A stretch of DNA of 64,000 nucleotides from a bacterium (GCA_037127915.1 JBAXXL010000023.1:319-64318), one strand, 5' to 3'; numbered from the stretch's first letter, positions 11,908 to 36,418 are shown. Numbers and translations: made by a program. Notes: generated by a model from the sequence alone, not told the origin.

Positions 11908-14634
11908 ATGAAAAGTTTTTTGATTATTTTGTGTTGTCTATTTGTCAACATAACTTTATATTCTCAAGGCTCTTCGCTTGATGATATAGTACCGAAACCA
12001 AAATTAGCTTATTACAAAACTTACAGTGCTATGTTTGGTATAAATAATAATACTGTCATTGTATTGAATAGCGAGAATCCTCAGTATTCAGCGGCTTATT
12101 TTCTTAACAAAAAGTTGAAAGAACGATACGTTATCGATACCAGTAAAATTTATCTCGACATGCCACCTGATAATTATGCAAATGTGATATATTTGGGTGT
12201 ATGCGATAGTAAAATAAACGATATGCTATCAAATGACTACGACCAGCCTTATAAAGTTAATAAAGATACACCGGGAAAAGAAGGTTATATTTTAGATGTA
12301 ATACCGGTGCGAATACTGATAAACGCAAGTGACGGCGAAGGTCTAATTAACGCGATTAGAACATTCACGCAAACACTTCTTCCCGGCGATGCTACGACAT
12401 TTGTTCGAGCATATCGCATAATAGATGTCCCGGATTACTCAAGACGCTGGGTTTACTTCCCTACAAATTTCTTAGTAGGTGCTAATACCACTGCCGCTAA
12501 ATCACAATGGAAACAATGGGCGGATTGGAAAATAAATGCCGTAAACCTGACCGATTATAAATTTGATTTTATTAGTACTCAACCGAAACGATACTTCGAT
12601 TCGCTAAGTTCTACTAATAAATTCGCAAAAGCGAACTTTTTGAATATAATTCCATCGACTATGTCTTGGGGATATTCGAACGGCATGATGTTTTTCGATC
12701 CGAATTTTGCAACCGGTTTGCCGGTAAATTTACAGAAATTTGTTATCAAAGCCGATACTGCTGAAATGGTTCCAACAGTAAAAACAACTTTGCCAAACGG
12801 CGATTTTGAAAATTATACAGGAAATAATTTCCCGGGATTTTTGTTTATTGATGGAGCTGGAACGCAAAGCTTTGCAGACAATTCAATCTTTAAGACCGGT
12901 AAAACTTCAATAAGGTTTGAGAATTTTGATGGTTCAAACGCGCGGGTTTGCTATCGTACTAAAGTCAGTCCTTTCAAAGAATATCTAATTTCCGGTTGGG
13001 TAAAAACCGAAAATGCTTCACCGGCTGGCGATATACGGCTAACAGTATTGAATAATAAAGGACAAACGTTGAATTATGCCAATTTGAATGTACCCACCAC
13101 AACTGACGGTTGGAAAAAAATTGATCTCATAGTAAATTCCTTATTAGGAGATACGATGACCGTTTATTTGGGCTTATGGGGAGCTGAGTCAGGTAAAATT
13201 TGGTGGGATGACCTGAAGGTAGAAGAAGCCGCTTTTGTGAATTTGATAAGACGTGAGGGAACACCTTTGAATGTAAACCATCAATATTTGGATGTTGTGA
13301 TTCGCGAAGGAATAGATTATGATACACTTGTGGATAAAAAACTCGGTGCCGCGGCGGGTTGGTTTGGTGAATTTGACACATATCACAAACCGCCGACATT
13401 GAAAATAAAAAATGATGGTATGCTGAAAAATGGCGATACTGTTTTAGCATCGTATTATCACGCTATCACGGTTTATGATGGACAGGTTATGGTTACTATG
13501 TCTGACGATAATCTTTATAAACAAGTGGATAGGGAGTTTCGGCTTTTAGATAGCGTATTGAAGGCAGAAACGTATTTTATGAATCACGACGAATTGCGGG
13601 TAATGAATTGGGATTACGGTGACCAAAGCCGAGGAATATCAGCAAAAGAAATATTAGCGGATAATGTGCACAAATCAATAGATATAATACACAAATACAA
13701 TCCCGAAGCCGATGTATGGGATTGGTCCGATATGTTCGATAATTTTCACAACGCGACTAAGAATTACTATTTAGTAAATGGTGATTTAACTGGTGTAGCG
13801 GATTTGATTCCGAATTCAATGGGCATAGTTAATTGGAATTCAGGTAAGTTATCGAACAGCACTGATTTCTTTGCCGGAAAAGGTTTTAGGCAAATATCTG
13901 CGCCATATTACGATACAGACCAAAATGATATAAGGATATGGAAAGAAAAAACTCAAGGCATTGCCAATTTCGAAGGAATGATGTACACTACTTGGTCACG
14001 AAATTACAATTATGTGAAACATTTTGCCGAATATGGATGGAACCACGCGCCTTATATAACGCATATTCCTCTTTGGGGGATTGAACCCAATAGAAAGCTG
14101 AGCTTCGATGTGCAGATTATCGGTGATGATATGGACAACGGTTGGAAACTTGCAACTGCTAAATTATACTACAGAACCGATGCGAAAGGAAACTTCGTCG
14201 CTAAGAATTTGCATCTTGTTAATAACGCGGCAAATTTAGAAATTGATTTAACAAATGACAATGCATATTTAGAATATTATATCGAAGCTACTGACAATCG
14301 CGGGTGGACTAAGCGCAATCCATTGGAAGCGGATAGATATTACACCCTTGGGACAACGACAAGTGTAAAAGAAGACAATATGAGCCAAGAGTTGCTTATA
14401 TCACCAAATCCGGCAGGAGATTATATTGATATAGAGTTATCAGCAATCAACCCCAAGCTTAAACGTGGGGTTGATGAAACACAAAAAATCTATATTTATA
14501 ATGTTTTAGGAGAAATGGTCTTATCTGTAGGGACAGATCGCGACCTGTCCGCTCGGATAGATATTTCATCATTGTCTAAAGGGCTATATATGGTAAAATA
14601 TGGTCAAAATACTGCTAGGTTTCTGAAAATATAG
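11908..14634 (+). CDS. Large secreted protein with T9SS C-terminal sorting domain (function unknown)
   Basis: 908 aa. Signal peptide. The sorting domain (SPNPAGDYIDIELSAINPKLKRGVDE...LSVGTDRDLSARIDISSLSKGLYMV) is paralogous to that of 49900..51294. Confidence 0.65.
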   Translation: MKSFLIILCCLFVNITLYSQGSSLDDIVPKPKLAYYKTYSAMFGINNNTVIVLNSENPQYSAAYFLNKKLKERYVIDTSKIYLDMPPDNYANVIYLGVCDSKINDMLSNDYDQPYKVNKDTPGKEGYILDVIPVRILINASDGEGLINAIRTFTQTLLPGDATTFVRAYRIIDVPDYSRRWVYFPTNFLVGANTTAAKSQWKQWADWKINAVNLTDYKFDFISTQPKRYFDSLSSTNKFAKANFLNIIPSTMSWGYSNGMMFFDPNFATGLPVNLQKFVIKADTAEMVPTVKTTLPNGDFENYTGNNFPGFLFIDGAGTQSFADNSIFKTGKTSIRFENFDGSNARVCYRTKVSPFKEYLISGWVKTENASPAGDIRLTVLNNKGQTLNYANLNVPTTTDGWKKIDLIVNSLLGDTMTVYLGLWGAESGKIWWDDLKVEEAAFVNLIRREGTPLNVNHQYLDVVIREGIDYDTLVDKKLGAAAGWFGEFDTYHKPPTLKIKNDGMLKNGDTVLASYYHAITVYDGQVMVTMSDDNLYKQVDREFRLLDSVLKAETYFMNHDELRVMNWDYGDQSRGISAKEILADNVHKSIDIIHKYNPEADVWDWSDMFDNFHNATKNYYLVNGDLTGVADLIPNSMGIVNWNSGKLSNSTDFFAGKGFRQISAPYYDTDQNDIRIWKEKTQGIANFEGMMYTTWSRNYNYVKHFAEYGWNHAPYITHIPLWGIEPNRKLSFDVQIIGDDMDNGWKLATAKLYYRTDAKGNFVAKNLHLVNNAANLEIDLTNDNAYLEYYIEATDNRGWTKRNPLEADRYYTLGTTTSVKEDNMSQELLISPNPAGDYIDIELSAINPKLKRGVDETQKIYIYNVLGEMVLSVGTDRDLSARIDISSLSKGLYMVKYGQNTARFLKI

Positions 14635-15122: not shown

Positions 15123-18100
15123 CTATTTAATAACCACCAGCTCCCTAGTTATAAATCCCGAAGGTGTGATAATCGTAATGTAATATGTTCCGCTTGTTAA
15201 ATGCTCCGCATTTATCTCATATCTCGTTTCGCCTTGTGATAAACGAATAGGATCTGTCTTAATTATTTTCCCTTCAGCAGTAGTGATTTGTATTTTCGCA
15301 TCGCACGTTTCAGCATAGTTTATAATTAGTTCAGCATTATTGCCCGTTGGATTCGGATAAAGTTTGATTGAGCTGAAGAGTTCGCATTCTTTAACAGATG
15401 TTGCGGCTGTTGTGTAATGCCAAGTTTCACTCCAAGGCGTTGTGTATTGTTTGCTCACACCTTTGACACGCCAGAAATAATCTGTACTTACTTCTAAATC
15501 TGCTTTCGAAAGTGTCCATTTGGTGTCAACAATTGAATCTTTATCGAATATCACATTCACAAAGTCTTCATCTGTTGCAACTTGCAGATTATAATATTCG
15601 GCTGTAGTTGCCGGGAACCACAATAAAAGCGTCGGAATATTCACACCGGTACTGCCGGTTTTAGGATTCCGTAGTACAAGTGTTACCTTACCCGTTGTAA
15701 AAGTCCAAACATTTGACCATTGCGAAGTGCCGAATGATTCTTCATTCCAAGCTCTAACACGCCAATAATATAGTATTTCCGGTTCCAATTCTTCAACGTA
15801 TTGTTCAGTTTTGGTCAACGAGTCCATAGAGTAAACCATATCGGTAAATAATTCATTTTTTGATATTTGCAATTGATAGAATTTAGAACCAATGACCTCA
15901 TACCATCTGAATTTTATCGTTGTGGATTGATCTTTAGATTTATCGGGTGGATTGAGTAAATTTGCTGATTGGATACCGGATTTAAATGACCGTATTTCCG
16001 ACCATAGCCCAAAACGCTGACCAACTACCAATCTAACTCGCCAAAAATAGTTTTTGTAATATTCCAATTTATTGGTCTGGAATTCGAGTATGTTTTTTAC
16101 TATTTGATCGTCAACAGTTGTTTTAAAATCCACTTCTTTGGAGATTTGAATTTGAAATTCGCTTCCCGCAACGTGTTCCATCCATGTAAATTTGGCATCT
16201 ATAGGCACATTAACTTTTTGGTTTTCTGGATAAATCAATTCAACCGCTTTTAATGAAGTGCTGAATGTCCATATATCGGAGTAATCGCTTGTCCCTTCAC
16301 TGTTAACTGAGCTAACATGCCAATAATATTCAGTCTCAGCGAGCATATTGTCAATAATTTTAAATGTATCCGCACCAGTACTACCTTCGAAAAATAAATC
16401 CGTGAACGCAGAATCCTTAGCAACTTGAATGAAATATGTTAGAGCTTCAGCGGATTTGTGCCAATTGAATTGCTCCGAAAGCTGTTTATCAATCGAATTA
16501 TTTTCGGGATATATTAATTTAGGAGGCCCCATTACGGTACGGAAGTTCCAAACTTCGGACCAGCGGCTTACATTATCTTTAGTGAATGCTTTAACCCTCC
16601 AATAATACTTAGTTAATCCATTTAATTTACTTGTGGTTATTGTAGTGTCGGGGTAGTTGTTTTGTTCAAACACTAATTTATCAAAGTTTTCATCTTCAGC
16701 TACTTGAATTTGGTAATTGGTTGAACCTACTATTTTATGCCATACTAATTCAGCGGACCGCGGAACTGACACTTTACCTTTTTCAGGACTTATCAAAATT
16801 GGCGGCTCCAAACCGATTGTAAATGTTTGTTTTTCTGTCCATTTGCTTCGAGCAGAATGAGTTTTACTGCGTATCCGCCAATAAAAATCGCTACCGTAAA
16901 ACAAATTTAGTACGACTTTACAAACACTGTCACCCGTTACATTTATTTCGAATGGATCAGGAAATTCTTCAATTTGGTCGAATTGTAACTCATATTCTTC
17001 GGCTAATGGAACAGTTTTCCAGGACATTATAGGATTTATTTCCTCGCCTTTTTGGCCATCTTTTGGTGCTATTATAACTGGCGGTTGGAGAGCTTTGCGA
17101 TTAAGAACCTTATACAAAGCATTTGTCCAAATGTAAGTATAGCCACTATAATCGGTACATATTCCACGGACTCGATCCATATTATAGCATCCCTTCATAG
17201 CCTGCCAACTCATTCCATTATTAGAAGCTGTGTATAGTTCATACAGAATTCCTTGATTTGATGTGCTGATTTGGATTGAAACAAAGAAGTCGCCATATAA
17301 ATCCACTTCAATATTTTTGATACTCCAACCATAGTTTGGAACCAAAATATCCGGTTTGAAATTGATCTGCTTCCAAGTCGAACTGAAATTCTGTGTGTAA
17401 TAGATTTTATTATCGCTAGTATTATAATAATATTGATTCCCGTCTTTTCCATAAACTAATTTCACTGAAGGTTTTATAAATACATGTTGATATGAAAGGC
17501 CGTGGTCTATGGATTTAACAAAATTTTCATTCTGGTTCATATACCAATTAGATTCTTTGTCAATAAATAAATTATCTAAAGCCGTTATTCCATAATCAGT
17601 AACGACCCACGATGCTCCAAAGTCATTTGATACATATAAACGATTATCAAATTCCAAGTATGGTTTTGGTATGCCAGGTGGCTGAGTGATGGTATCAGGA
17701 ACAAGATATGTAAATGTAGCAACTAATTTTTTTGCCAAAGTATCATATTCGATAAAATTAAATTCCCAGTATTTTTCTTTTTTCTCCGGTACCGTTAGCA
17801 ATTTATTGAAAGTTTTACCTCCGTCAATTGAACCATATAAACCTTCATCAGCGGCAATAAACATATTCCCTTCCGGAGTGATTTCTACATCATTTATTTT
17901 ACGACATCTAAAGGTACTTAAATAAGTCCAGTCATTTCCATGATTAATTGACTTATAAACTTTTCGTGAATCATAACCGGTTTTAGTAAATAAAATCAAA
18001 GAGTTGTCGTAATCACTTGTGTATAAATTGAGTTGATCTTCATATCCGGGAAAAACATTTTTGTCTTCCTCTGTGATTTTTTTGGCACATATTGTCCAAT

Positions 18101-19088
18101 GTTCTCCGTTATCTGTGCTTCGAGTAACATCACCTAAAGTGCGAGTTGCTAAAATAGTCCCGTTTGGAGAAACAGCGCAGGCTGTTATTCCAAGAGCAAA
18201 TTCTCCTGTATTTTGCCAGCAATTCCATATATCGTCCCAAAAATACATTCCCGCAGAACGTGTACCCATCAGCATTTGATATCGATTTACACCAACTGCC
18301 ACAACTGCAGTATCTAACAAAGGTCCAATGTCATTTAATTGATAGTGATGGTAATTATTAGGATAAGTATTCCAAGTCATACCGTCGCCCGAAAACATTA
18401 CTCCTCCACCATTTGTAGCGGCATAAATTTTTCCGGATTCGTCTTCGGCAAAATCGTTCAAGAAATAATTTTTCAATTCAGTATTTGACAAAACCCAACT
18501 TTTACAAGTGTCCCGTGAGGCATAGACTCCCCCGCCCGCAGTACCGGCAAGAATTCTGCCGTTTCGCATATATAGCAAGCAGGTAACGTTATCATTCCTC
18601 AGACCTTTGTCGGTTCTTGTCCAATTATCACCATTATCATCGGAATAATAAATTCCACCACCATAAGTTCCGCAAATCACTTTACCTTTATTAGTAACTG
18701 TCAAAGCCTGAACATACAAATTTTTCAAACCGTTGTTTTTTTGAGCCCACGTTGCGGCATTATCTTTTGAATAGTATATTCCTTCACCAAAAGTTGCAAC
18801 ATACAAATCCTTATTGGGTGCAATAATTATATCTTTTATACAAGGATTTTCAATTGGAAAAGTAGTCAATTTAACCCATTTTGTACCGCCATCATACGAT
18901 ACATATAGACCGGCACCATTGGTGCCGGCATATACAATTTGGTCGGTTTTGAACTTAAGCACTTCAACTTCGACACCAGTAGGAATAGTGACACGACCCA
19001 TAAAATCTTCCGGTGCACGGGGTATTGCACGTAGATTAAGATTAGTTGATAGGAGCAATAAAAATAAAATAATAGATAAATTCTTCAT
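15123..19088 (-). CDS. Giant T9SS cargo protein: BNR/Asp-box beta-propeller region, six tandem ~95-aa Fn3-like repeats (YYWRV motif) and a sorting domain
   Basis: 1321 aa. Asp-box motifs (SYDGGTKW, SKDNAATW, SDDNGDNW, STDNGEHW, SIDGGKTF). Six repeats, each ending ...YYW(R/H)V...W.F.T. Sorting domain KLYPNPTGNNAEL...GTYYITIITPSG. Inverted paralog of 32238..36194. Confidence 0.7.
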   Translation of the reverse strand: MKNLSIILFLLLLSTNLNLRAIPRAPEDFMGRVTIPTGVEVEVLKFKTDQIVYAGTNGAGLYVSYDGGTKWVKLTTFPIENPCIKDIIIAPNKDLYVATFGEGIYYSKDNAATWAQKNNGLKNLYVQALTVTNKGKVICGTYGGGIYYSDDNGDNWTRTDKGLRNDNVTCLLYMRNGRILAGTAGGGVYASRDTCKSWVLSNTELKNYFLNDFAEDESGKIYAATNGGGVMFSGDGMTWNTYPNNYHHYQLNDIGPLLDTAVVAVGVNRYQMLMGTRSAGMYFWDDIWNCWQNTGEFALGITACAVSPNGTILATRTLGDVTRSTDNGEHWTICAKKITEEDKNVFPGYEDQLNLYTSDYDNSLILFTKTGYDSRKVYKSINHGNDWTYLSTFRCRKINDVEITPEGNMFIAADEGLYGSIDGGKTFNKLLTVPEKKEKYWEFNFIEYDTLAKKLVATFTYLVPDTITQPPGIPKPYLEFDNRLYVSNDFGASWVVTDYGITALDNLFIDKESNWYMNQNENFVKSIDHGLSYQHVFIKPSVKLVYGKDGNQYYYNTSDNKIYYTQNFSSTWKQINFKPDILVPNYGWSIKNIEVDLYGDFFVSIQISTSNQGILYELYTASNNGMSWQAMKGCYNMDRVRGICTDYSGYTYIWTNALYKVLNRKALQPPVIIAPKDGQKGEEINPIMSWKTVPLAEEYELQFDQIEEFPDPFEINVTGDSVCKVVLNLFYGSDFYWRIRSKTHSARSKWTEKQTFTIGLEPPILISPEKGKVSVPRSAELVWHKIVGSTNYQIQVAEDENFDKLVFEQNNYPDTTITTSKLNGLTKYYWRVKAFTKDNVSRWSEVWNFRTVMGPPKLIYPENNSIDKQLSEQFNWHKSAEALTYFIQVAKDSAFTDLFFEGSTGADTFKIIDNMLAETEYYWHVSSVNSEGTSDYSDIWTFSTSLKAVELIYPENQKVNVPIDAKFTWMEHVAGSEFQIQISKEVDFKTTVDDQIVKNILEFQTNKLEYYKNYFWRVRLVVGQRFGLWSEIRSFKSGIQSANLLNPPDKSKDQSTTIKFRWYEVIGSKFYQLQISKNELFTDMVYSMDSLTKTEQYVEELEPEILYYWRVRAWNEESFGTSQWSNVWTFTTGKVTLVLRNPKTGSTGVNIPTLLLWFPATTAEYYNLQVATDEDFVNVIFDKDSIVDTKWTLSKADLEVSTDYFWRVKGVSKQYTTPWSETWHYTTAATSVKECELFSSIKLYPNPTGNNAELIINYAETCDAKIQITTAEGKIIKTDPIRLSQGETRYEINAEHLTSGTYYITIITPSGFITRELVVIK

Positions 19089-24639: not shown

Positions 24640-24646
24640 GGGTTCT

Positions 24647-27600
24647 ATGAAAAATTATATAATACTTACGATATTAGCTTTGTTTTCGTTGACTACAGTC
24701 TCCGCGCAGAACTACTTTATTGAAAACAAGGGACAATGGACGGACGAGGTTTTATTTAAAAACCAATCCGCCGGAAATACTACGTGGATAACGAAAAGTT
24801 CGGTAGTATTCGATTATGCGCAATATTCAGAGATTTCAGAAAATGAATTTTCAGCCACGGGGCAGGTAATTAAAATGGAATTTTTGAATTCTAATTTAAA
24901 TACCGAATATTCTGGGAAAAAAAAATTGAGCGCTTACCATAATTATTTTATCGGTAACAATCAAAATAAATGGAAATCCAAAGTCGCGCTTTATGAAGAT
25001 GCCGTTCTGACAAATGTTTATGAAGGGATTGATTTGAAATTTTACTGGGATGAAGGAACTATTAGATATGATTTCATCGTTGGTCCAAAGTCCAACCCCA
25101 ATCAAATCAAACTGAAATTCAGCGGACAAGATGATATAAGCATCAGCAAAGATAGCGAATTATGCTTAACAACCCGATTCGGTGAAATAAAGCATACGAA
25201 GCTATTGGTTTATCAGATGGTTAATGGTCAGAAGACAGCAATAAAATCCGCTTTTGTTTCCCTTGCCGATAATACATTCAAATTTGAAATTGGCGCTTAT
25301 GATAAATCCCGAGAGTTGGTTATAGATCCCTTAATATATTCTACTTACATTGGTACATCCGATAACGACCGCGCATTCGAAATGACGTTGGCTCCTGACG
25401 GTAAACCAATTATTGTTGGTCTGTCTTGGAATTCATCCTATCCTACCAGTAGCGGTGCATATCAAAAAACGGTAAAAGGTAATTCCGACGGAATTTTGAC
25501 CAAAATGAATGATGATTGTACTGCCGTCTTATTTTCCACGTTTTATGGCGGTTCCCAATGGGAAGAGCCGCGTGGTATCGATTATGACACCGAAGGGAAC
25601 ATTTATATCGCCGGTGAAACTATGTCAACAGATTTTCCGGTTTCATCTATGGCTTATCAAAAAACTGCCGGTGGTAACAACCAATCCGATGCCTTTGTTT
25701 TAAAATTTTCGTCTGATGGCAGTCAACTTATTTTTTCCACTTATTTAGGAACCGCTCAAGCTGACCAAGCCAAAGATTTAAAAATTGACCCAAACGGTTT
25801 TGTATTTGTAATTGGTGAAGCACGGTCTTCGGCTTTTCCAATAACGGCTAATGCCGTTCAAAAAACTTATAGCGGCGGTCCGGTTGACGGATTCTTGACA
25901 GTTTTTTCACCTGATGGAAAGGACTTAGTGTATTCCACTTTCATAGGCGGAACGGGTGACGACTTTCCGCGTAAAATACTGTTAGACGGCGATTTCCTAT
26001 ATATTGTTGGACATACACGATCAACAGATTTTCCGGTTACTGCAAATGCTTATCAAAAAACTATAGGCGGTAATCGTGACGCTTTTTTGATTAAGTACCG
26101 AGGTCAAGGGACAGAGACTTTATTTTCAACTTTTATAGGCGGTAGTTTGGATGATAGTGGAATTGGAATGTGTTTTGATGCCAATAAAAATATAATTTTC
26201 ACAGGTAATACATTTTCTACAAATTATCCGGTCACTAACGATGCTGTTCAAAAAACTCTCGCCGGTGATGATGATGTGATGGTAACAAAGTTCAATCCGG
26301 CAGGAAATCTGATATATTCTACTTTTATAGGTGGTAAAGCAAGCGATAGAGCTAACGATATTCGGTGCGACGAATTTGGTAATTATTACCTGACCGGTAT
26401 GACTAAATCAAATAATTACCCTACAACTTTGAAAGCATTACAAAAAACTTATATAAGCAAAGAAGATGTATTGGTTACTAAGCTCAATCCTAATAATCCG
26501 AGTTTACTTTATTCAACTTATTTAGCAGGGAATAACGAAGATTGGGGACGTAGTATTGCTTGTTATGGAAATACAGTAATTGTTACGGGATATACAAGCA
26601 GTAGTGATTTTTTGATAAGTGATAATGCTTATAAGAAGACATTCAGCGGTAATAGAGACATTTTTCTCACGAAATTCTCGCCCGACGAAGGAACATTGGA
26701 TAAACCTATATTAGTTAATCCAGTAAAAGGCGCGGTTGATGTTATTATTCAGCCAACGCTGATTTGGGAAAAAGTAGATTACGCTGACGCTTATACTGTA
26801 ATAGTTGCCAAAGACATTGATTTGACAAATAAGGTATTTTCTCAAACCGGTATTACAACCCTACAGAAAAAAATAGATACTGAATTGGAATCGAATAAAA
26901 AATATTATTGGGCGGTTACAGCAAAAGCTGGAGCTGTGGTTGGTCCACAGTCCGATGTTTATTCATTTACAACTGAAGTAAATCTATCCGTGCCGACTTT
27001 AATCTCACCTCCAGATAAAGCGGATGATGTTGTATTAACACCAAAATTTACTTGGTCTCAAGAACCCAATACCGATAATTATCATTTACGTCTGCTTAAT
27101 TCAAATAATCCGGATGATATTATTTTCGAAAAACTATTTCCTACCGAAACAGAGTACGTTTCTCCTATTACATTAGAAGAAGGTAAAGAATATTTCTGGA
27201 CAGTCAGAACAATTTATAATGGTGAAATAGGACCTTGGGCTTCGATTTCTTCATTCACAACCAAATCAACCATCAAAGCACCAATTTTGGTCTATCCGGC
27301 GGATAAAGATAAATATGTTCAGTCAAAAAACACTCTATTTTATTGGAAAAAAGAAAAAACAGCAACGCAATACGAAATTTATATTTATGAAGAAGCTGAT
27401 TTAAAATCTCCGATTAAAACCGCTCTAATAAGCGATACATTTTATATTAACAATTCTGATTTGGAATACGGAAAGATTTATTATTGGACAGTTCGCTCGA
27501 AATCGTCCAACCAGACCAGCTCTTGGACAGAAATGTTTAGCTTCCAAACTGAAGTAGTTATGGAAAAACCTATTTTAATTTCTCCCGAAAATTTCACTAA

Positions 27601-28396
27601 AGATTTGACTATTTATCCAAAATTTGTTTGGCACAGGGTTAATTACGCAGTTAAATACAAGCTCGAGATTATGATTCCCGATGCTTTAGTTTATCAAGCA
27701 GAAACAAGCGATACAAGTTTTCAAATGCTCGAGCCGTTGGAAAACGGTGCGGGATTATATTGGCAAGTGAGAGCTATCGGTGTTGATGAAACAGAACAAT
27801 TGTCCGATACTTGGGAATTTAGTACAATCGATGCCTTAATTGCACCAACATTGGTCAGCCCAGACGAAATGGCTCAAATTGACCCCGCAACAGCAACATT
27901 CGTTTGGAATAAAGTTCCACATTATGATGGATTATACAATATTCAGATTTACAAAAGACCCGGCTCTGTCTTGGTTATTGACGAGATTGTAGAAGATACG
28001 GTTTATACTGTTGATGAGCCTCTGCTGTACAACCAAGGTTATTATTGGCAGGTGTCTTATTTCCGTGGTGACGAAACGAGTCCTTGGTCAATAGTCAGAC
28101 GTTTCACAACTTATCCGACTTCAGTAAAAGAAAGCCCACTCTTCAGCTCAATCAAACTTTATCCTAATCCAACGGGCAGTAAAGCTGAACTAAGTATAAA
28201 CTATTCTGAAACCTGCGACGCGAAAATCTTTATCAGCACAGTGGGTGGAAAAATCATTAAAACGGATGTTATCAGATTATTAATTGGCGAAACGCGATAT
28301 GAAATTGACACGGAACACTTAACTTCGGGATCATATTATATTACAATTACCACACCTGCGGGGTATATTACAAGGGAATTAGTAGTTGTTAAATAG
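24647..28396 (+). CDS. Giant T9SS cargo protein: SBBP beta-propeller repeats, Fn3-like YYW repeats and a sorting domain
   Basis: 1249 aa. Repeats of the YSTY.GG..D...DxxGNxYxxGxTxSxDFPxTxxAYQ type (SBBP/PF06739-like). C-terminal half has the same ~95-aa YYW repeats as 15123 and 32238. Sorting domain about 88% identical to that of 32238..36194. Confidence 0.7.
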   Translation: MKNYIILTILALFSLTTVSAQNYFIENKGQWTDEVLFKNQSAGNTTWITKSSVVFDYAQYSEISENEFSATGQVIKMEFLNSNLNTEYSGKKKLSAYHNYFIGNNQNKWKSKVALYEDAVLTNVYEGIDLKFYWDEGTIRYDFIVGPKSNPNQIKLKFSGQDDISISKDSELCLTTRFGEIKHTKLLVYQMVNGQKTAIKSAFVSLADNTFKFEIGAYDKSRELVIDPLIYSTYIGTSDNDRAFEMTLAPDGKPIIVGLSWNSSYPTSSGAYQKTVKGNSDGILTKMNDDCTAVLFSTFYGGSQWEEPRGIDYDTEGNIYIAGETMSTDFPVSSMAYQKTAGGNNQSDAFVLKFSSDGSQLIFSTYLGTAQADQAKDLKIDPNGFVFVIGEARSSAFPITANAVQKTYSGGPVDGFLTVFSPDGKDLVYSTFIGGTGDDFPRKILLDGDFLYIVGHTRSTDFPVTANAYQKTIGGNRDAFLIKYRGQGTETLFSTFIGGSLDDSGIGMCFDANKNIIFTGNTFSTNYPVTNDAVQKTLAGDDDVMVTKFNPAGNLIYSTFIGGKASDRANDIRCDEFGNYYLTGMTKSNNYPTTLKALQKTYISKEDVLVTKLNPNNPSLLYSTYLAGNNEDWGRSIACYGNTVIVTGYTSSSDFLISDNAYKKTFSGNRDIFLTKFSPDEGTLDKPILVNPVKGAVDVIIQPTLIWEKVDYADAYTVIVAKDIDLTNKVFSQTGITTLQKKIDTELESNKKYYWAVTAKAGAVVGPQSDVYSFTTEVNLSVPTLISPPDKADDVVLTPKFTWSQEPNTDNYHLRLLNSNNPDDIIFEKLFPTETEYVSPITLEEGKEYFWTVRTIYNGEIGPWASISSFTTKSTIKAPILVYPADKDKYVQSKNTLFYWKKEKTATQYEIYIYEEADLKSPIKTALISDTFYINNSDLEYGKIYYWTVRSKSSNQTSSWTEMFSFQTEVVMEKPILISPENFTKDLTIYPKFVWHRVNYAVKYKLEIMIPDALVYQAETSDTSFQMLEPLENGAGLYWQVRAIGVDETEQLSDTWEFSTIDALIAPTLVSPDEMAQIDPATATFVWNKVPHYDGLYNIQIYKRPGSVLVIDEIVEDTVYTVDEPLLYNQGYYWQVSYFRGDETSPWSIVRRFTTYPTSVKESPLFSSIKLYPNPTGSKAELSINYSETCDAKIFISTVGGKIIKTDVIRLLIGETRYEIDTEHLTSGSYYITITTPAGYITRELVVVK

Positions 28397-28434
28397 TTTT
28401 AAATTTTGAATGTTGAGTTTTGAATGTAGGGGCA

Positions 28435-28465
28435 GAAAATTTTCTGCCCTTTCTTTATCAGAATT
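28435..28465 (+). terminator. GTAG-preceded hairpin terminator (TGTAG GGGCAGAAAA|TTTTCTGCCC plus T-rich)
   Basis: Perfect 20-nt palindrome immediately after the 24647..28396 stop. The 5' TGTAG flank is the one seen on the other family-A hairpins. Confidence 0.7.
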
Positions 28466-28519
28466 AGAATGAAGGGATTAGAAGATTATAGGATAGATTG
28501 TCATACCCGAGGGATCGGG

Positions 28520-28640
28520 AATCCATCTTCGAATAATTGAAAATAGTAAGTTGAAAATGAGGAGAAAGAGAAGATAAACCCCGTAATTCGTAATTTGAAA
28601 TTCGTAATTGTTGGTCAAAAAGGCTATCCTTTTTTGGGAT
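28520..28640. repeat. Family-A repeat copy (W-X-Y modules) ending in GGCTATCC...GGATAGCC hairpin
   Basis: GGGAATCCATCTTCGAATAATTGAAAAT...GTTGAAAATGAGGAGAAAGAGAAGATAAA...CGTAATTCGTAATT. The hairpin at 28611-28640 reads as a T-tailed terminator on the minus strand for the DUF4160/DUF2442 operon. Confidence 0.6.
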
Positions 28641-28651
28641 AGCCATATAGG

Positions 28652-28894
28652 TTAACTGTTTACTATTGTGCTGTTTTCATAAATTTCGTTTGGGCAAATA
28701 TCCTCTCCGGTAATCCATTCCAAAGTAATATCTCTTACCGTGACAGTTTTAAAAATTGAGGGATTTATAAGATTTTTATATGCCGGATGTGTTAACCACT
28801 TATTCATATCATAAATGCGTTTCTCACCATTCTGAAATACTATTTCAAGAAGGAAATCATCTAATGCTTTAACAGTTTTAGGACGCGGTACCAT
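28652..28894 (-). CDS. DUF2442 family protein
   Basis: 80 aa. Pattern VKALDDFLLEIVFQNGEKRIYDM...TVRDITLEWITGEDICPNEIYE matches the DUF2442 profile known to me. Confidence 0.65.
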   Translation of the reverse strand: MVPRPKTVKALDDFLLEIVFQNGEKRIYDMNKWLTHPAYKNLINPSIFKTVTVRDITLEWITGEDICPNEIYENSTIVNS

Positions 28895-28897
28895 AAT

Positions 28898-29164: not shown

Positions 29165-29324
29165 ACTATTTTCCTATTATTATTAACTTTGGCAATATTG
29201 CAAATAAATTACTAATTTTATATATGATTAAACGAATAATCGTAATTCATATTTTGATTATGGATATCATAGTCCAAATTGGATAAATGTTTTTGTTTTG
29301 AAAATAAAAAAGGCTAAACTTATT

Positions 29325-29640: not shown

Positions 29641-29663
29641 AACAATTAATAATAATTATAACG

Positions 29664-29897: not shown

Positions 29898-29907
29898 TTC
29901 AATCCTC

Positions 29908-30410: not shown

Positions 30411-30412
30411 AT

Positions 30413-32237: not shown

Positions 32238-35200
32238 ATGAAGAATTTATCGATTATTTTATTTTTATTACTCTTATTAACCACTCTTGCACAAGGTTCG
32301 CTTACACGTGCACCGGAAGATTTCATGGGTCGCGTTACTTTACCTACAGGTGTAGAAGTGGAAGTACTTAAGTTCAAATCAGATCAAATTGTTTACGCAG
32401 GTACAAATGGTGCCGGCTTATATGTATCCTACGATGGTGGATCAAATTGGGGTAAACTAACCGCTTTTCCAGAGGAATTTCCCTGCATAAAAGATATTCT
32501 TATCACAAAGAACAAGGATTTATATGTTGCCACTTATGGTGGTGGTGTTTACTATTCGAATGATAATGGTGCTACTTTTATCCCTAAAAATAATGGGATC
32601 AAAAATTTATTGATTCAAGCATTGGCTGTTACACAGAGCGGCAAATTACTTTGCGGTACTTACGGCGGCGGAATTTACTATTCCGATAATGATGGAGATT
32701 ATTGGACGAGAACCGATGCAGGATTGCGTTATGACAACGTAACCTGTATAACCGAAATGAATAATGGTTTTATTTTAGCCGGTACTTGGGGTGGTGGATT
32801 TTACGTATCCCGAGATACTTGTAAAACATGGCTTGTATCTAATACCCAATTAACGAACATATTTATTAATGACTTAGTCAAAGATGAATCAGGTAAAGTG
32901 TTTGCTGCTACAAACGGAACCGGAGTTATGTTTACCGGTGATGGTATTACATGGCACAACTATAGTAATAAATATCATCACTACCAAGTAAACGACATAA
33001 GCCCGTTATTGGATACCGCTGTTGTCTCTGTTGGAGTAAATAAATATCAGTTGCTTATGGGTACCAGATCGGCAGGAATGTATTTTTGGGATGATATATG
33101 GAATTGCTGGCAAAATACCGGAGAATTTGCTCTTGGCATAACAGCTTGCGCTGTGTCACCAAACGGGACTATTTTAGCAACTCGAACTTTAGGTGATGTT
33201 ACTAGAAGTACCGATAATGGTGAACATTGGACTATTTGCGCAACAAAAATTATTGAATATGATTTAGCTGAGTTCACAGGATTTGAAGACCAATTAAATC
33301 TTTTTACTAGTAAATTCGATAATTCATTGGTATTGTTTTCAAAGTCAAATACCATCAGGAAAGTCTATAAATCTGAAAATCACGGTTATGATTGGAGATA
33401 TTTAGGATCATTGACCGTTAGGAAAATCAATGATGTTGAAATCACCCCTGAAGGGAACATATTTGTTACCGCTGATGAAGGTGTATATGGTTCGATAGAT
33501 GGAGGTAAAACTTTTAATTCGATATTAACGGTACCTGATAAAAAGGAAAAATACTGGGAATTTTACGATATCGAATATGATGCTGTTACTAAAACTATTG
33601 CAACTACATTTGTATATTTTGTTCCCGATACTATCACTCAGCCGCCAAATAAGCCTAAGCCATTTTTAGAGTGTATAAATCGGATATACAAATCAACAAA
33701 TAATGGTACTTCATGGACGAATGCTGATTATGATACAACAGGTATTGATTTTTTCCATATTGATAAACAATCTAATTGGTATATGAGAAAAGGTATTAGT
33801 TTTGTTAAATCGGTAGACCATGGATTATCTTTTAATGCGTTATTTCCACATAAAGTCAAAAGATTAATTTATGGAAAAGATGGTAATCAATATACTTTTG
33901 ACGATCAGAATCAATTGTTTTATTCTTCGAAATTCAGTTCAACTTTTAATCAAATTCCATTTAAACCGGAAATATTGGTTCCAAGTAATGATTGGAGTAT
34001 TAAGAATATATCTATTGACTCAAATAGTAGAATATATGTTTCGATATGGATTAGCACTCCCTCGCAAGGAGTTATTTACGAACTATATAAGACAGATGAT
34101 TTTGGAAATAACTGGCAAACATTAAAAGGATGTTATAACATGGATAGAATCCGTGGAATATGTTCTGATTATAGCGGATATACATATATATGGACGAATG
34201 CTTTATATAAAGTACTAAATCCTATATCGTTAGATGCGCCATTTACTATAACACCGAAAGATGGTCAAAAGGGCGAAGAAATTAATCCTGATTTTGCTTG
34301 GGAGCGCGCAAAATTTGCTGAAGAATACGAACTTCAAATTGACCAGACCGATTTATTCTATTCACCATTTGAAACTAATGCTACTGGTGATACAACTCTT
34401 AAGGCGGTCATAGAATTGAAATATAACCAAGAGTACTATTGGCGGATAAGGAGCAAAACGCACTCGGCGCGTAGTGCTTGGACAATTAATTCATTTACAA
34501 CGGGAATGGAACCTCCGTTTTTGATTAGCCCTGAGAAAGACGAACTTGGTGTTCCGCTGAATGCCGGTTTAAAATGGCATAAAAAAGAAGAGGCAACGCA
34601 TTATTCAATTCAAGTGGCTGAAGATGAGAATTTTGATAAAATTGTTTATTCGCAAGATAATCATCCCGATACAACTATTACAACTAATAAATTAATCGGA
34701 TTAAAAACTTATTACTGGCGCGTGAAAGCATTTACTTCAAACAATGCCAGCAGTTGGTCCGAAGTTTGGAACTTCCAAACTGTTTTGGGACCGCCGAAAT
34801 TAGTCTATCCTGAAAATAATTCTCTTGATAAATTGCTTTCGGAGCAGTTCAAATGGCATAAATCCGCTGAAGCTCAGACTTATTTTATTCAAGTCGCAAA
34901 AGATTCAGCATTCACGGATTTATTTTTTGAAGGTTCATCAGGTGTGGATACATTTAAAATTATCGATAATATGCTACCCGAGACTGATTACTTTTGGCAT
35001 GTAGCATCGGTAAATACTGAAGGAATCAGTGAATATTCAGAAATATGGACGTTCAGAACATCATTTAAACCTTTAGAATTGCAGACCCCAGCTAACGAAA
35101 AGGTTAATGTCCCTCTTGATACTAAATTTACTTGGTTGGAACACAACGGCGGTAGTCAATATCAAATTCAAATATCAAAAGTTAACGATTTCAAAACAAC

Positions 35201-36194
35201 TGTGGTTGATGAGAAAGTTAATAATTTGCTCGAATACCAAACAAATAAATTGGAATACTACAAAGAGTATTTCTGGCGTGTAAGATTAATTGTCGGTACT
35301 CGTGTTGGTCTATGGTCAGAGGTTTGGGCGTTTAAAACAGGTATTCAAAGTGCAGGACTACTGAATCCGCCGGACAAATCTATCGACCAGCCGACCACAA
35401 TTAAATTCAAATGGTCTGAGATAATAGGTGCGAAATACTATCAATTGCAGATTTCGAAAAACGATAATTTCACGGATTTGGTTTATTCTATGGATTCGCT
35501 GGATAAAGCAGAACAATATGTTGAAGACCTTGAACCAGAATTACTTTATTATTGGCGGGTACGTGCTTGGAATGATGAATCTTATGGAACATCCCAGTGG
35601 TCACAAGTGTGGACATTCACAACCGGCAAGGTTACGCTGATACTCCGCAATCCGAAAACAGGAGCAACAGGAGTTGTTATTCCAACACTTTTAACTTGGT
35701 TTACAGCAACAACTGCGGAATATTATCATCTGCAAGTTGCAAAAGATGCCAATTTTACGAATGTTATTTTTGATAAAGATTCGATTTATGATACCAAATG
35801 TACGCTGTCGAAAACAGATGTCGAAACAAACACAAATTACTTTTGGCATGTAAAAGGCGTAAGCAAAAAATATACAACTCCTTGGAGCGATACGTGGCAA
35901 TTCTCAACCGGAGAAGTATCGGTTAAAGAAAGCCCACTATTCAGCTCAATAAAACTTTATCCAAATCCAACGGGCAGTAAAGCAGAGCTAAGTATCAACG
36001 ATGCTGAAACCTGCGACGCGAAAATATTAATCAGCACAGTGGATGGGAAAATCATTAAAACGGATGTTATCCGATTATTAATTGGCGAAACACGTTATGA
36101 AATTGACACGGAAAAGTTATCTTCCGGATCATACTATATTACGATTATCACACCGTCGGGGTATGTGACGCGGGAATTGATAGTAGTGAAATAA
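32238..36194 (+). CDS. Giant T9SS cargo protein (BNR/Asp-box region, six Fn3-like YYW repeats, sorting domain); inverted paralog of 15123..19088
   Basis: 1318 aa. The first ~70 aa and a 66-aa internal block (LLMGTRSAGMYFWDDIWNCWQNTGEFALGITACAVSPNGTILATRTLGDVTRSTDNGEHWTICA) are near-identical to the minus-strand paralog. Sorting domain about 88% identical to that of 24647..28396. Confidence 0.7.
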   Translation: MKNLSIILFLLLLLTTLAQGSLTRAPEDFMGRVTLPTGVEVEVLKFKSDQIVYAGTNGAGLYVSYDGGSNWGKLTAFPEEFPCIKDILITKNKDLYVATYGGGVYYSNDNGATFIPKNNGIKNLLIQALAVTQSGKLLCGTYGGGIYYSDNDGDYWTRTDAGLRYDNVTCITEMNNGFILAGTWGGGFYVSRDTCKTWLVSNTQLTNIFINDLVKDESGKVFAATNGTGVMFTGDGITWHNYSNKYHHYQVNDISPLLDTAVVSVGVNKYQLLMGTRSAGMYFWDDIWNCWQNTGEFALGITACAVSPNGTILATRTLGDVTRSTDNGEHWTICATKIIEYDLAEFTGFEDQLNLFTSKFDNSLVLFSKSNTIRKVYKSENHGYDWRYLGSLTVRKINDVEITPEGNIFVTADEGVYGSIDGGKTFNSILTVPDKKEKYWEFYDIEYDAVTKTIATTFVYFVPDTITQPPNKPKPFLECINRIYKSTNNGTSWTNADYDTTGIDFFHIDKQSNWYMRKGISFVKSVDHGLSFNALFPHKVKRLIYGKDGNQYTFDDQNQLFYSSKFSSTFNQIPFKPEILVPSNDWSIKNISIDSNSRIYVSIWISTPSQGVIYELYKTDDFGNNWQTLKGCYNMDRIRGICSDYSGYTYIWTNALYKVLNPISLDAPFTITPKDGQKGEEINPDFAWERAKFAEEYELQIDQTDLFYSPFETNATGDTTLKAVIELKYNQEYYWRIRSKTHSARSAWTINSFTTGMEPPFLISPEKDELGVPLNAGLKWHKKEEATHYSIQVAEDENFDKIVYSQDNHPDTTITTNKLIGLKTYYWRVKAFTSNNASSWSEVWNFQTVLGPPKLVYPENNSLDKLLSEQFKWHKSAEAQTYFIQVAKDSAFTDLFFEGSSGVDTFKIIDNMLPETDYFWHVASVNTEGISEYSEIWTFRTSFKPLELQTPANEKVNVPLDTKFTWLEHNGGSQYQIQISKVNDFKTTVVDEKVNNLLEYQTNKLEYYKEYFWRVRLIVGTRVGLWSEVWAFKTGIQSAGLLNPPDKSIDQPTTIKFKWSEIIGAKYYQLQISKNDNFTDLVYSMDSLDKAEQYVEDLEPELLYYWRVRAWNDESYGTSQWSQVWTFTTGKVTLILRNPKTGATGVVIPTLLTWFTATTAEYYHLQVAKDANFTNVIFDKDSIYDTKCTLSKTDVETNTNYFWHVKGVSKKYTTPWSDTWQFSTGEVSVKESPLFSSIKLYPNPTGSKAELSINDAETCDAKILISTVDGKIIKTDVIRLLIGETRYEIDTEKLSSGSYYITIITPSGYVTRELIVVK

Positions 36195-36218: not shown

Positions 36219-36260
36219 AGCCGGTCAAAGAGCGTAATTGCATTGACCGGCTTTTTTTCT
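36219..36260 (+). terminator. Hairpin terminator (AGCCGGTCAA ... TTGACCGGCT plus T7) after 32238..36194
   Basis: Perfect 10-bp stem with 15-nt loop, then TTTTTTT. Followed by a W-module (CTGAATTAGGATTGAATGATTAGAATATT) homologous to 28462-28500 and 30243-30280. Confidence 0.65.
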
Positions 36261-36418
36261 GAATTAGGATTGAATGATTAGAATATTGGTTGTAGACAAC
36301 AGAATGGGTTGTCACGCTTTTGGTGATTTTTAATATAGCAGTCTGAAACTAAATTAGATTTGTCTAACTCAATTAAAAATTGTAATTTTACTTTTTTAAT
36401 AAATCTACAACTTAACTA

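What the first reader, a model, noticed from the sequence alone, without database searches (positions are those of the whole stretch)
24647..28500. Domain-shuffled third paralog: SBBP propeller N-terminus fused to the shared Fn3-like repeat region, with a near-identical sorting domain and 3' flank but a different terminator hairpin
Gene 24647..28396 has an unrelated N-terminal half of SBBP-type beta-propeller repeats. From about nt 26700 onward it carries the same ~95-aa YYW repeats as the other two giant paralogs. Its last ~95 aa are about 88% identical to the end of 32238..36194 (VKESPLFSSIKLYPNPTGSKAELSIN...). Similarity continues about 50 nt past the stop, since the W-module ATCAGAATTAGAATGAAGGGATTAGAAGATT at 28462 matches CTGAATTAGGATTGAATGATTAGAATATT at 36260. 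The intervening terminator hairpins are unrelated (GGGCAGAAAATTTTCTGCCC versus AGCCGGTCAA...TTGACCGGCT). This suggests a recombination-based system that exchanges 3' modules (repeats, sorting domain and flank) among cargo genes, and perhaps swaps hairpin modules as well.
Basis: seen in the sequence. Interest (0 to 1): 0.55.

Follow-up and report, generated by a model that had tools for sequence, protein, structure and literature searches.

The report
Swapped secretion tail on SBBP protein
A large secreted surface protein of an uncultured Kapabacteria-type bacterium had its roughly 90-residue type IX secretion tail replaced by a copy from an unrelated neighbouring protein family; this looks like a one-off, fairly old gene-conversion event, not a dedicated module-swapping system.

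Summary
Gene A (24647..28396) is DUF7948 + SBBP propeller + five Fn3-like repeats + a T9SS type-A sorting domain (CTD). Nucleotide similarity to paralog B (32238..36194) is confined to the CTD: 87.6% over 275 nt. It is bounded sharply, at 28121-28127 (36% to 88%) and at the stop codon (88% to 28%).

The decisive evidence is from orthologs. Two syntenic orthologs of A, in L002 (86% aa) and in Candidatus Kapaibacterium GCA_038206725.1 (72% aa), match A up to codon V1160 and then carry different CTDs. A's CTD falls within the variation of the B/C-family CTDs and is closest to B. Synonymous difference from B is about 0.3, against about 0.7 between A and its most distant ortholog. So the CTD was replaced by non-reciprocal recombination.

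- The Fn3 repeats are only about 25-27% identical to B's and are ancestral to A.
- A's terminator hairpin and 'W-module' flank are orthologous to those of the L002 gene.
- The W-module is the start of a ~200-nt dispersed intergenic element that is not tied to cargo genes.
- No recombinase or reverse-transcriptase (RT) domain turned up in the ten neighbouring ORFs scanned, the junction has no repeat or hairpin, and there is no diversity-generating-retroelement (DGR) mutation signature.

This is ordinary domain swapping with a clean natural example. Side observation: GTAG-headed palindromes sit in frame inside other CTDs.

The parts
24647..28396 (+). Gene A: secreted T9SS cargo protein, 1249 aa (signal peptide, DUF7948, SBBP propeller, five Fn3-like repeats, type-A CTD)
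   Evidence: ORF; translation; domains; the identical protein is present in an independent Logan assembly
24716..25333 (+). DUF7948 domain (aa 24-229)
   Evidence: Pfam PF25778, E=1.6e-60, 205 bits
25334..26695 (+). SBBP beta-propeller repeat region (about aa 230-683)
   Evidence: PF06739, 63.9 bits against a cutoff of 20.5. NF047494 partial match to aa 267-496. Hundreds of SBBP homologs cover about the first 53% of the protein
26696..28120 (+). Five Fn3-like (Ig_Rha78A_N-type) repeats of about 95 aa. Ancestral to the A lineage and not shared with B/C at sequence level
   Evidence: blastp of A 684-1155 against B gives 25-27% in three registers. No blastn hit to B or C. 90-92% nt identity to the L002 ortholog up to 28126
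28121..28126 (+). 5' junction: codons S1159-V1160 (TCAGTA) are still A-type, identical to L002; B has TCGGTT. The crossover lies between 28126 and 28127, with at most 2-3 nt of microhomology
   Evidence: Alignment; maximum chi-square breakpoint at 28121, identity 36% to 88%; the A-L002 high-scoring segment ends at 28126
28127..28393 (+). Acquired B/C-type T9SS type-A sorting domain (CTD). Segment 1 (28121-28324 as computed) is 90.2% identical to B. Segment 2 (28325-28393) is 79.7% identical to B and is also B-type in the L002 ortholog
   Evidence: PF18962 30.5 bits against 27, and TIGR04183 28.5 bits against 23
28394..28396 (+). Stop codon, which is also the 3' limit of A-B similarity
   Evidence: Maximum chi-square breakpoint at 28396, identity 88% to 28%
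28428..28451 (+). Intrinsic-terminator-like hairpin of A (GTAG-headed: TGTAGGGGCAGAAAATTTTCTGCCC). Locus-ancestral, not swapped
   Evidence: Terminator scan; the 20-nt palindrome is 100% conserved in the L002 ortholog flank
28446..28644 (+). Dispersed intergenic element E1 (about 200 nt).
   Evidence: nhmmer finds a second full copy at 30221-30413, an ortholog at L002:13802-14016, and partial copies at 36250-36317, 57714-57789 and 11805-11856(-). Self-blast 28451-28635 against 30227-30405, E=2e-34
32238..36194 (+). Gene B: B/C-family cargo (BNR/F510_1955-like propeller, about six Fn3-like repeats, CTD). Closest relative in the window of A's CTD, and the likely donor lineage
35925..36191 (+). 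CTD of B, the counterpart of A 28127-28393
   Evidence: blastn 87.6%; CTD pS 0.355
36220..36258 (+). Terminator hairpin of B (AGCCGGTCAA-14 nt-TTGACCGGCT, then a T-run), unrelated to A's
   Evidence: Read directly from the sequence. The loop is longer than 8 nt, so the scanner did not list it
36250..36317 (+). Partial E1 copy (first ~60 positions of the element) in B's 3' flank. This is the source of the 'flank similarity'
   Evidence: nhmmer E=6e-4, model positions 6-62; shuffle tests 0/500
15123..19088 (-). Gene C: second B/C-family paralog (72.8% nt to B over its whole length). Its CTD (15126-15392) is 77% identical to A's

Best explanation
Gene A is an old, conserved T9SS cargo gene (DUF7948-SBBP propeller head, five Fn3-like stalk repeats, type-A CTD). 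In the lineage of this window its original sorting domain was overwritten by the CTD of the B/C cargo family through a non-reciprocal recombination event (ectopic gene conversion).

Shown: the replacement tract is about 270 nt. It starts between 28126 and 28127, right after the shared Ser-Val at the stalk/CTD linker, and it ends within the last codons before the stop. A's own 3' flank, terminator and dispersed repeat were left untouched.

Inferred: the 5' joint has only 2-3 nt of microhomology, so it is effectively illegitimate. The 3' crossover probably used pre-existing homology in the last ~70 nt, because the L002 ortholog also has a B-type tail. That makes it a homology-facilitated illegitimate recombination type of event. 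Selection then kept only an in-frame joint at the domain linker.

Because type-A CTDs are portable T9SS secretion signals (my background knowledge, not tested here), the chimera should stay secreted. Consistent with that, the acquired CTD has since evolved under purifying selection. No dedicated exchange machinery is involved.

The flank resemblance to B comes from a separate family of short dispersed intergenic repeats.
For: (1) A-B nucleotide similarity is limited to 28121..28395 (87.6%). A-C similarity is limited to the same tract (77.6%). B-C similarity runs over the whole gene (72.8%).

(2) Breakpoints are sharp: 36% to 88% at 28121 (chi-square 141) and 88% to 28% at 28396 (chi-square 175).

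(3) Orthologs of A sit in conserved synteny (C-ortholog, 363-aa gene, 108-aa gene, RecG, S13 peptidase, A). They match A at 92% (L002) and 74% (L004) up to 28126. After that, L004 has an unrelated CTD. L002 has an unrelated CTD except for its last 68 nt.

(4) The L002 and L004 orthologs continue to resemble each other about 50 nt beyond A's junction (SVLDEN / SVLDNS). So the non-B CTD start is ancestral and A is the recipient.

(5) A's CTD lies inside the CTD variation of the B/C family: 81/92 identical to B, against a family mean of 71.5 and maximum of 83. Among 1.84 billion representative proteins, only five clusters score above 129 bits with the B-type CTD profile, and the next hit scores 71 bits. 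The five clusters are two for the B/C family, one VWA type, one CxxCH type, and A itself.

(6) Timing: CTD pS for A-B is 0.355 (0.29 in segment 1). This compares with 0.57 for the B-C CTDs and 0.67 for A against its L004 ortholog. So the A and B CTDs share an ancestor far younger than gene A.

(7) Differences are neutral-looking: 23 of 34 at third codon positions, pN/pS about 0.15.

(8) A's flank and terminator are orthologous to L002's.

(9) It is not an assembly artefact. The tract is 12% diverged from B, it is flanked on both sides by A-locus sequence, and the identical gene is present in an independent Logan assembly.

(10) Precedents: domain rearrangement and gene conversion among T9SS cargo of Porphyromonas gingivalis (PMC5266723). 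One-sided-homology recombination is a described mechanism (PMC3240628).
Against: Only three A-lineage sequences exist in the searched data, so polarity rests on a three-taxon argument plus the dS argument.

The divergence between the window and L002 is itself mosaic. The C gene and the 363-aa gene have pS about 0.7, while RecG to A have pS about 0.3. The high-identity block ends exactly at 28126. So part of the sharpness in the A-versus-L002 comparison could be the end of an inter-lineage homologous-recombination tract, and not the original conversion joint.

A-B CTD divergence (12%) is slightly larger than A-L002 divergence (8-10%). The actual donor may therefore be an unseen paralog, or the event may pre-date the w/L002 split.

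The history of the last 69 nt is unresolved: A-L002 75%, B-L002 84%, A-B 80%.

The 3'-anchor (HFIR-like) mechanism is inference only. Secretion of the chimera is untested.
Confidence: 0.78

Rival explanations
1. A dedicated recombination system moves 3' cassettes made of stalk repeats, sorting domain and flank among cargo genes, and swaps terminator hairpins, using GC-rich palindromes or GTAG hairpins as recombination sites.
For: The CTD really was exchanged, with sharp borders. The CTD of the L002 ortholog is a three-part mosaic that contains two palindromes also found elsewhere. GTAG-headed palindromes lie inside other CTD coding regions and in intergenic DNA. One GTAG hairpin is a clean presence/absence indel between copies of element E2.
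Against: Repeats and flank are not part of the exchanged tract. There is no palindrome or notable inverted repeat at the A or B junctions, and the B-type CTD contains none. No recombinase, transposase or RT domain was found in the ten neighbouring ORFs scanned. The event is old (pS about 0.3) and was followed by ordinary purifying selection. E1 copies are not preferentially next to cargo genes.
Confidence: 0.07
2. The B-type CTD is ancestral to gene A. The orthologs in L002 and L004 each lost it by their own replacements, so the polarity is reversed.
For: The L002 ortholog keeps a B-type tail of 68 nt (89.7% to B). Its middle part is 79% identical to the CTD of another cargo gene, window 51154-51254. 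This shows that CTD pieces do get replaced in that lineage too.
Against: L002 and L004 share the same non-B start of the CTD (SVLD...), about 50 nt past A's junction. If the domain had been inherited since before the L004 split (pS about 0.67), A-B CTD synonymous sites should be near saturation, yet pS is 0.29-0.36. A's CTD is closest to B of the same genome.
Confidence: 0.08
3. There was no exchange. The CTD is simply the only strongly conserved part of two anciently related proteins, or it converged under selection.
For: CTDs are conserved secretion signals. Within the B/C family the CTD is somewhat better conserved than the rest of the protein: 75.5% against 72.0% nt for B-C.
Against: Orthologs of A have unrelated CTDs. 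Similarity is high at synonymous sites (pS 0.29-0.36). The step from 36% to 88% identity occurs within a few bases.
Confidence: 0.02
4. A diversity-generating retroelement or another templated mutagenesis system rewrites the 3' end of A using B as the template.
For: DGRs target the C-terminal ends of surface proteins (background knowledge). A and B share a 3' tract of about 270 nt.
Against: The mismatches show no adenine specificity: 12 substitution types are seen, and 23 of 34 are at third codon positions. No reverse-transcriptase domain was found in the ten neighbouring ORFs scanned, and the window has no Rfam match at gathering threshold.
Confidence: 0.01

Closest known systems
Domain rearrangement and gene conversion among T9SS cargo of Porphyromonas gingivalis (RgpA/Kgp/HagA adhesin modules; Dashper et al. 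2017, PMC5266723)
   Same: These are T9SS cargo genes of one genome that share C-terminal modules. Combinatorial modularity and gene conversion are proposed there as the source of surface-protein diversity.
   Different: There the shuffled units are adhesin domains and the CTD stays constant. Here the stalk repeats stay put and the CTD itself is the exchanged unit, moving between otherwise unrelated cargo. The host here is an uncultured Kapabacteria lineage.
Homology-facilitated illegitimate recombination (one homologous anchor plus one illegitimate joint; e.g. PMC3240628)
   Same: One end of the tract lies in sequence already shared by recipient and donor type (the last ~70 nt of the CTD). 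The other end is a joint with 2-3 nt of microhomology.
   Different: The mechanism is inferred from the end product only. Whether the donor DNA was intragenomic (paralog B) or came from outside is unknown.
T9SS type-A C-terminal sorting domain (TIGR04183 / PF18962) as a portable secretion signal
   Same: A's last 77 aa score above both curated cutoffs. The domain follows an Ig/Fn3-like stalk, as in the other cargo examined here.
   Different: Here a natural replacement is documented by ortholog comparison.
GTAG-tagged REP elements / BIMEs, including intragenic REPs (Di Nocera et al. 2013, PMC3733652; Nunvar et al. 2010, PMC2817692)
   Same: The hairpins in A's flank and elsewhere are short palindromes headed by GTAG. 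They lie mostly downstream of ORFs and are combined with other short modules in mosaic intergenic elements. Some lie in frame inside genes.
   Different: No RAYT gene was seen among the window ORFs scanned, and copy number in the genome is unknown. That survey lists Bacteroidetes only among the phyla with CGTC-tagged repeats, and this passage does not list Bacteroidetes for GTAG repeats. These elements are not involved in the A/B CTD exchange.

Membership tests
T9SS type-A sorting domain (Por_Secre_tail, PF18962 / TIGR04183) | C-terminal domain of about 75 aa scoring above the curated cutoffs, located at the extreme C-terminus | tested here: met
   A aa 1171-1247: PF18962 30.5 bits (cutoff 27) and TIGR04183 28.5 bits (cutoff 23)
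T9SS type-A sorting domain (Por_Secre_tail, PF18962 / TIGR04183) | N-terminal Sec signal peptide on the same protein, and T9SS machinery in the genome | not tested
   The N-terminus MKNYIILTILALFSLTTVSAQ looks like a signal peptide by eye. No predictor was run, and T9SS core genes were not searched for; only a 64-kb window was available
SBBP beta-propeller repeat proteins with DUF7948 | DUF7948 followed by SBBP repeats | tested here: met
   PF25778 205 bits and PF06739 63.9 bits. More than 5000 homologs share this head
B/C cargo family (BNR/F510_1955-like propeller + six Fn3-like repeats + CTD) | Homology over the whole length, including the N-terminal propeller | tested here: not met
   A shares no N-terminal homology with B/C. 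Its repeats are only 25-27% identical. Only the CTD is shared, so A is not a 'third paralog'
Ectopic gene conversion / non-reciprocal recombination tract | A tract of high identity between non-orthologous genes, with abrupt borders | tested here: met
   36% to 88% to 28% identity, with borders at 28121 and 28396
Ectopic gene conversion / non-reciprocal recombination tract | Phylogenetic incongruence: the tract groups with the donor family while the flanks group with orthologs | tested here: met
Ectopic gene conversion / non-reciprocal recombination tract | Homology on both sides of the tract before the event | tested here: not met
   On the 5' side there is only TCnGTn microhomology. On the 3' side, homology is plausible only within the last ~70 nt. 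Hence the HFIR-like variant is proposed
Diversity-generating retroelement target | Template/variable repeat pair differing at adenines, plus a nearby reverse transcriptase | tested here: not met
   Mismatch spectrum is unbiased. No RT domain in the ten neighbouring ORFs scanned
Site-specific cassette-exchange or shufflon-type system | Recombinase gene plus conserved recombination sites at the cassette borders | tested here: not met
   No recombinase domain in the ten neighbouring ORFs scanned. No notable repeat or inverted repeat at 28121-28127 or 35919-35925
REP/BIME-type dispersed intergenic repeats (for the W-module and GTAG hairpins) | Short palindromes with a conserved GTAG head, in multiple dispersed copies, mostly downstream of ORFs | tested here: met
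   TGTAGGG-palindromes read by eye in the sequence at 28426-28449, 29557-29590 and 58722-58747. The 25-mer TGTAGGGACAGGTCGCGACCTGTCC occurs at 57834-57858, 14526-14550 and 51186-51210. E1 copies
REP/BIME-type dispersed intergenic repeats (for the W-module and GTAG hairpins) | Cognate RAYT (IS200/IS605-like Y1 transposase) in the genome | not testable with these tools
   Only a 64-kb window of this genome is available, and no such domain appeared in the ORFs scanned

The most novel reading that the evidence does not exclude
In this Kapabacteria lineage, the 3' ends of T9SS cargo genes may be a recurrent recombination hotspot. Sorting-domain segments would be repeatedly re-assorted among unrelated cargo, and REP-like GTAG palindromes embedded in frame in CTD loops would take part in this, as mobile inserts and/or as recombination-prone sites.

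Observations that leave this open:
- Gene A took a whole B-type CTD.
- The CTD of its L002 ortholog is a mosaic of three parts: an ancestral start, a type-2 CTD piece with two palindromes, and a B-type tail.
- Two unrelated window genes share a palindrome-bearing CTD.
- Different palindromes occupy the same CTD loop in different genes.
Probability: 0.15. Interest if true: 0.6.

Novelty: new member of a known kind. Interest (0 to 1): 0.33.

Why it matters
This is a clean natural case in which a T9SS sorting domain behaves as an exchangeable module in evolution. One type-A CTD replaced another on a conserved cargo protein, joined exactly at the stalk/CTD linker, and was then kept under purifying selection. 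That agrees with the view that cargo recognition by the T9SS depends on the CTD fold and not on the passenger.

It also has practical consequences. CTD similarity should not be used to infer paralogy or orthology of cargo genes. In these poorly studied Kapabacteria MAGs, surface-protein loci are recombination mosaics.

It does not reveal a new mechanism.

Tried and rejected
- A protein search with the CTD alignment in the 5.8-billion-protein index returned nothing usable. It was replaced by the exhaustive representative search.
- Two metagenome scans for more A orthologs, one with a single sequence and one with an alignment of the last stalk repeats, found none. The ortholog set therefore stays at three lineages.
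It was rebuilt as alignment A3.
- Rfam: no family at gathering threshold in the window. In 28397-30745 there were only sub-threshold chance-level hits, all to hairpins. No tRNA or tmRNA was found.
- The DGR hypothesis was rejected on the mismatch spectrum.
- A recombinase or mobile-element explanation was rejected for lack of any such domain in the ten neighbouring ORFs scanned and lack of junction repeats.
- I tested whether the cargo gene after alanine racemase in the Kapaibacterium genome (L007, 848 aa) is an ortholog of window gene 49900..51294 with a swapped tail. The two are not homologous.
- Assembly chimera was considered and rejected. The tract is 12% diverged from B, it has A-locus sequence on both sides, and an independent assembly is identical.
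- I considered that the palindrome-encoded CTD motifs might be widespread. Among the 240 proteins held at the time, only the L002 ortholog has them.

Full report
WHAT IS THERE.

Pfam and NCBIfam give A the architecture DUF7948 (aa 24-229, E=1.6e-60), SBBP propeller repeats, Fn3-like/Ig_Rha78A_N repeats, and a type-A T9SS sorting domain (PF18962 30.5 bits, TIGR04183 28.5 bits). B and C have a BNR/F510_1955-like propeller head, stronger Ig_Rha78A_N/fn3 matches, and the same kind of tail.

Relatives are annotated as Candidatus Kapaibacterium, so the source is an uncultured member of the Kapabacteria.

CHECKING THE OBSERVATION. blastn with 7-nt words finds similarity between A and B only at 28121..28395 against 35919..36193 (275 nt, 87.6%). 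Between A and C it is the same tract (77.6%). B and C align over their whole length, including about 100 nt of promoter region, at 72.8%.

The stalk repeats of A (five units, aa 684-1158) align to B's repeats at only 25-27% in three different registers. They belong to the same domain family but are not the same cassette.

An ungapped identity profile anchored on the stop codons steps from about 36% to about 88% at 28121, and from about 88% to about 28% at 28396 (maximum chi-square 141 and 175). So similarity does not run on past the stop.

The 'W-module' match about 60 nt downstream is real (0 of 500 dinucleotide shuffles reach the observed score), but it is a separate feature (see 'The flank and the hairpins' below).

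THE DECISIVE COMPARISON. A search with protein A found two full-length orthologs: P0002 (86% identity, JGI metagenome contigs L002/L003) and P0003 (72%, GCA_038206725.1, L004/L005). Many distant proteins share the DUF7948-SBBP head. A few share the whole architecture at about 30% identity, so the head/stalk/tail arrangement is old.

Both orthologs lie in the same gene order as in the window: C-ortholog, 363-aa gene, 108-aa gene, RecG, S13 peptidase, A. Yet their C-terminal domains differ. L004's is unrelated to A's (18% aa). L002's is unrelated except for its last ~22 residues.

At nucleotide level, A and the L002 gene are 92% identical up to 28126. They have no similarity across 28127-28325. 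From 28326 they are again similar (84.5%), through the stop codon and about 140 nt into the flank.

The two orthologs go on resembling each other for about 50 nt past A's junction (TSV-LDEN / TSV-LDNS). The non-B start of the CTD is therefore ancestral, and A is the recipient. The Ser-Val codons at 28121-28126 are still A-type (TCAGTA, as in L002, where B has TCGGTT). The joint lies between 28126 and 28127 with at most 2-3 nt of microhomology.

WHERE THE NEW TAIL CAME FROM. A's CTD sits inside the CTD variation of the B/C family. It shares 81 of 92 residues with B, and the same number with one other family member. The family's mean pairwise value is 71.5 and its maximum 83.

An exhaustive profile search of 1.84 billion representative proteins shows that this CTD type is a tight, lineage-restricted group. 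Five clusters score 130-174 bits, and the next hit drops to 71 bits. Those clusters are the B/C family (a full-length and a truncated representative), a VWA-headed cargo, a CxxCH-headed cargo, and A itself. The Kapaibacterium genome has the first three architectures, all with Fn3-like stalks.

Synonymous differences date the event. pS between the A and B CTDs is 0.355 (0.29 in the first 204 nt). The B and C CTDs give 0.57. A against its L004 ortholog gives 0.67. The window against L002, for RecG, the S13 peptidase and A, gives 0.26-0.32.

The tail is thus much younger than gene A, but it is not recent. Since the event it has evolved under purifying selection: 23 of 34 differences are at third codon positions, and pN/pS is about 0.15.

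MECHANISM. The tract is a non-reciprocal replacement of about 270 nt. No recombinase, transposase or reverse-transcriptase domain appeared in the ten neighbouring ORFs scanned. No notable inverted repeat lies at the junction in A or B. The mismatch spectrum has no adenine bias, which rules out a DGR.

The 5' joint is essentially illegitimate. The 3' crossover must lie in the last ~70 nt, where the L002 ortholog shows that the A lineage already carried B-type sequence (89.7% to B). I therefore favour a recombination with one homologous anchor and one illegitimate end (a described mechanism, PMC3240628), followed by selection for an in-frame joint at the stalk/CTD linker. That last step is inference.

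That type-A CTDs are portable secretion signals is background knowledge and was not tested here. It would explain why the chimera is viable.

Precedent exists for module rearrangement and gene conversion among T9SS cargo in P. gingivalis (PMC5266723). There, however, the CTD is the constant part.

THE FLANK AND THE HAIRPINS. A's terminator-like hairpin (28428-28451) and the following ~200 nt are orthologous to the flank of the L002 gene, and the 20-nt palindrome is identical. They were not exchanged.

The W-module is the 5' end of a ~200-nt intergenic element, E1. E1 has a second full copy at 30221-30413, which is not next to a cargo gene. There is an ortholog at L002:13802-14016, and partial copies lie in B's flank (36250-36317, E=6e-4), at 57714-57789 and at 11805-11856. 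The A/B flank resemblance therefore reflects a dispersed mosaic repeat family of the REP/BIME kind (PMC2817692, PMC3733652). It is not co-transfer with the CTD.

CAVEATS. Only three A-lineage sequences could be recovered; two metagenome scans found nothing more.

Divergence between the window and L002 is itself mosaic. The C gene and the 363-aa gene are as far apart (pS about 0.7) as they are from L004, whereas RecG through A have pS about 0.3, with the switch near 20.7-21.0 kb. The high-identity block ends at 28126. Inter-lineage homologous recombination has therefore also shaped this locus, and may contribute to how sharp the A/L002 border looks.

A-B CTD divergence (12%) slightly exceeds A-L002 divergence (8-10%). 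The true donor may be a paralog outside the window, or the event may slightly pre-date the split. The history of the last 69 nt is unresolved.

VERDICT. However, the exchanged unit is the sorting domain alone, the event is old and single, and nothing points to a dedicated system. It is a good natural example of a known process, domain swapping by gene conversion among surface-protein genes.

The more unusual things are side observations. GTAG-headed palindromes are encoded in frame inside other CTDs. The L002 ortholog's tail is a three-part mosaic. These keep open, at low probability, a broader 'CTD recombination hotspot' reading.

Noticed in passing
window 14526-14550 and 51186-51210 (inside CDS), 57834-57858 (intergenic); L002:13631-13654 (inside CDS): The 25-nt GTAG-headed palindrome TGTAGGGACAGGTCGCGACCTGTCC lies in frame inside the CTD coding sequence of three otherwise unrelated cargo genes, where it encodes LSVGTxRDLS. 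The same 25-mer occurs in intergenic DNA. None are expected by chance. Intragenic GTAG REPs are known in other phyla (PMC3733652).
   Followed up: partly
window 14446-14475 and 51106-51135; L002 about 13553-13589: A second in-CDS palindrome (ATCAACCCCA..TGGGGTTGAT, perfect in the 51106 copy) sits in a CTD loop. At the homologous loop the L002 A-ortholog carries a different palindrome (AAACCTTCCGAAGGTTTCGAACCTTCGGAAGGTT, encoding KPSEGFEPSEG). That one resembles the terminator palindrome at window 14644-14676.
   Followed up: partly
L002:13424-13753 (3' end of the A ortholog): Its CTD is a mosaic of three parts: an ancestral A-type start, a middle part 79% identical to the CTD of window gene 49900..51294 (51154-51254), and a B-type last 68 nt that is 89.7% identical to window B.
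   Followed up: partly
window 29307-29638 and 30387-30719; partial copy 14867-15040; L002:13983-14300: A ~335-nt repeated intergenic element (E2) with long internal pairing (AACCTTAGTAG...CTACTAAGGTT). Its RNA fold z-score is -5.9 and it has no Rfam family. Its GTAG hairpin (29557-29590) is absent as a clean ~28-nt indel in the L002 copy. This suggests that the hairpins are gained or lost as independent modules.
   Followed up: partly
window 28652-29164 (-) and 29664-30135 (-): A DUF2442/DUF4160 small-ORF pair and a DUF2283-containing pair sit between copies of E1 and E2. The first pair is absent at the corresponding place in L002, which instead has a ParE-type toxin gene further on. The region downstream of A is a variable islet.
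   Followed up: partly
window 15000-21000 versus 21000-28126, compared with L002: Divergence is mosaic. Gene C and the 363-aa gene differ from their syntenic L002 counterparts as much as from the L004 genome (pS about 0.7, 73-75% nt). The 108-aa gene is intermediate (pS 0.51, 78% nt). RecG, the S13 peptidase and A are 90-93% identical (pS about 0.3). The switch lies near 20.7-21.0 kb and implies homologous recombination between lineages or replacement of an allele.
   Followed up: partly
window 14401-14567 versus 51061-51227: The GH20-domain cargo gene 11908..14634 and the 464-aa gene 49900..51294 share only their CTD (59% aa, 74.6% nt). Similarity starts at the CTD and ends at the stop codon. 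This is a second CTD subtype shared by unrelated cargo in the same window.
   Followed up: partly
window 30746-31396 (-) and 31399-32067 (-); 40203-45625 (+): There are tandem paralogs: two adjacent genes of about 220 aa with no Pfam match (74% nt identical), and four consecutive 433-434-aa ORFs. The first of the four has CarboxypepD_reg plus Laminin_G_3 domains.
   Followed up: no
L007:3727-6273 and L008:3655-6264 (Candidatus Kapaibacterium GCA_038206725.1): Two further cargo architectures end in the B-type CTD after Fn3-like stalks. One has a CxxCH-containing N-terminal region and stalk repeats closely resembling those of B/C. The other has a VWA domain.
   Followed up: partly
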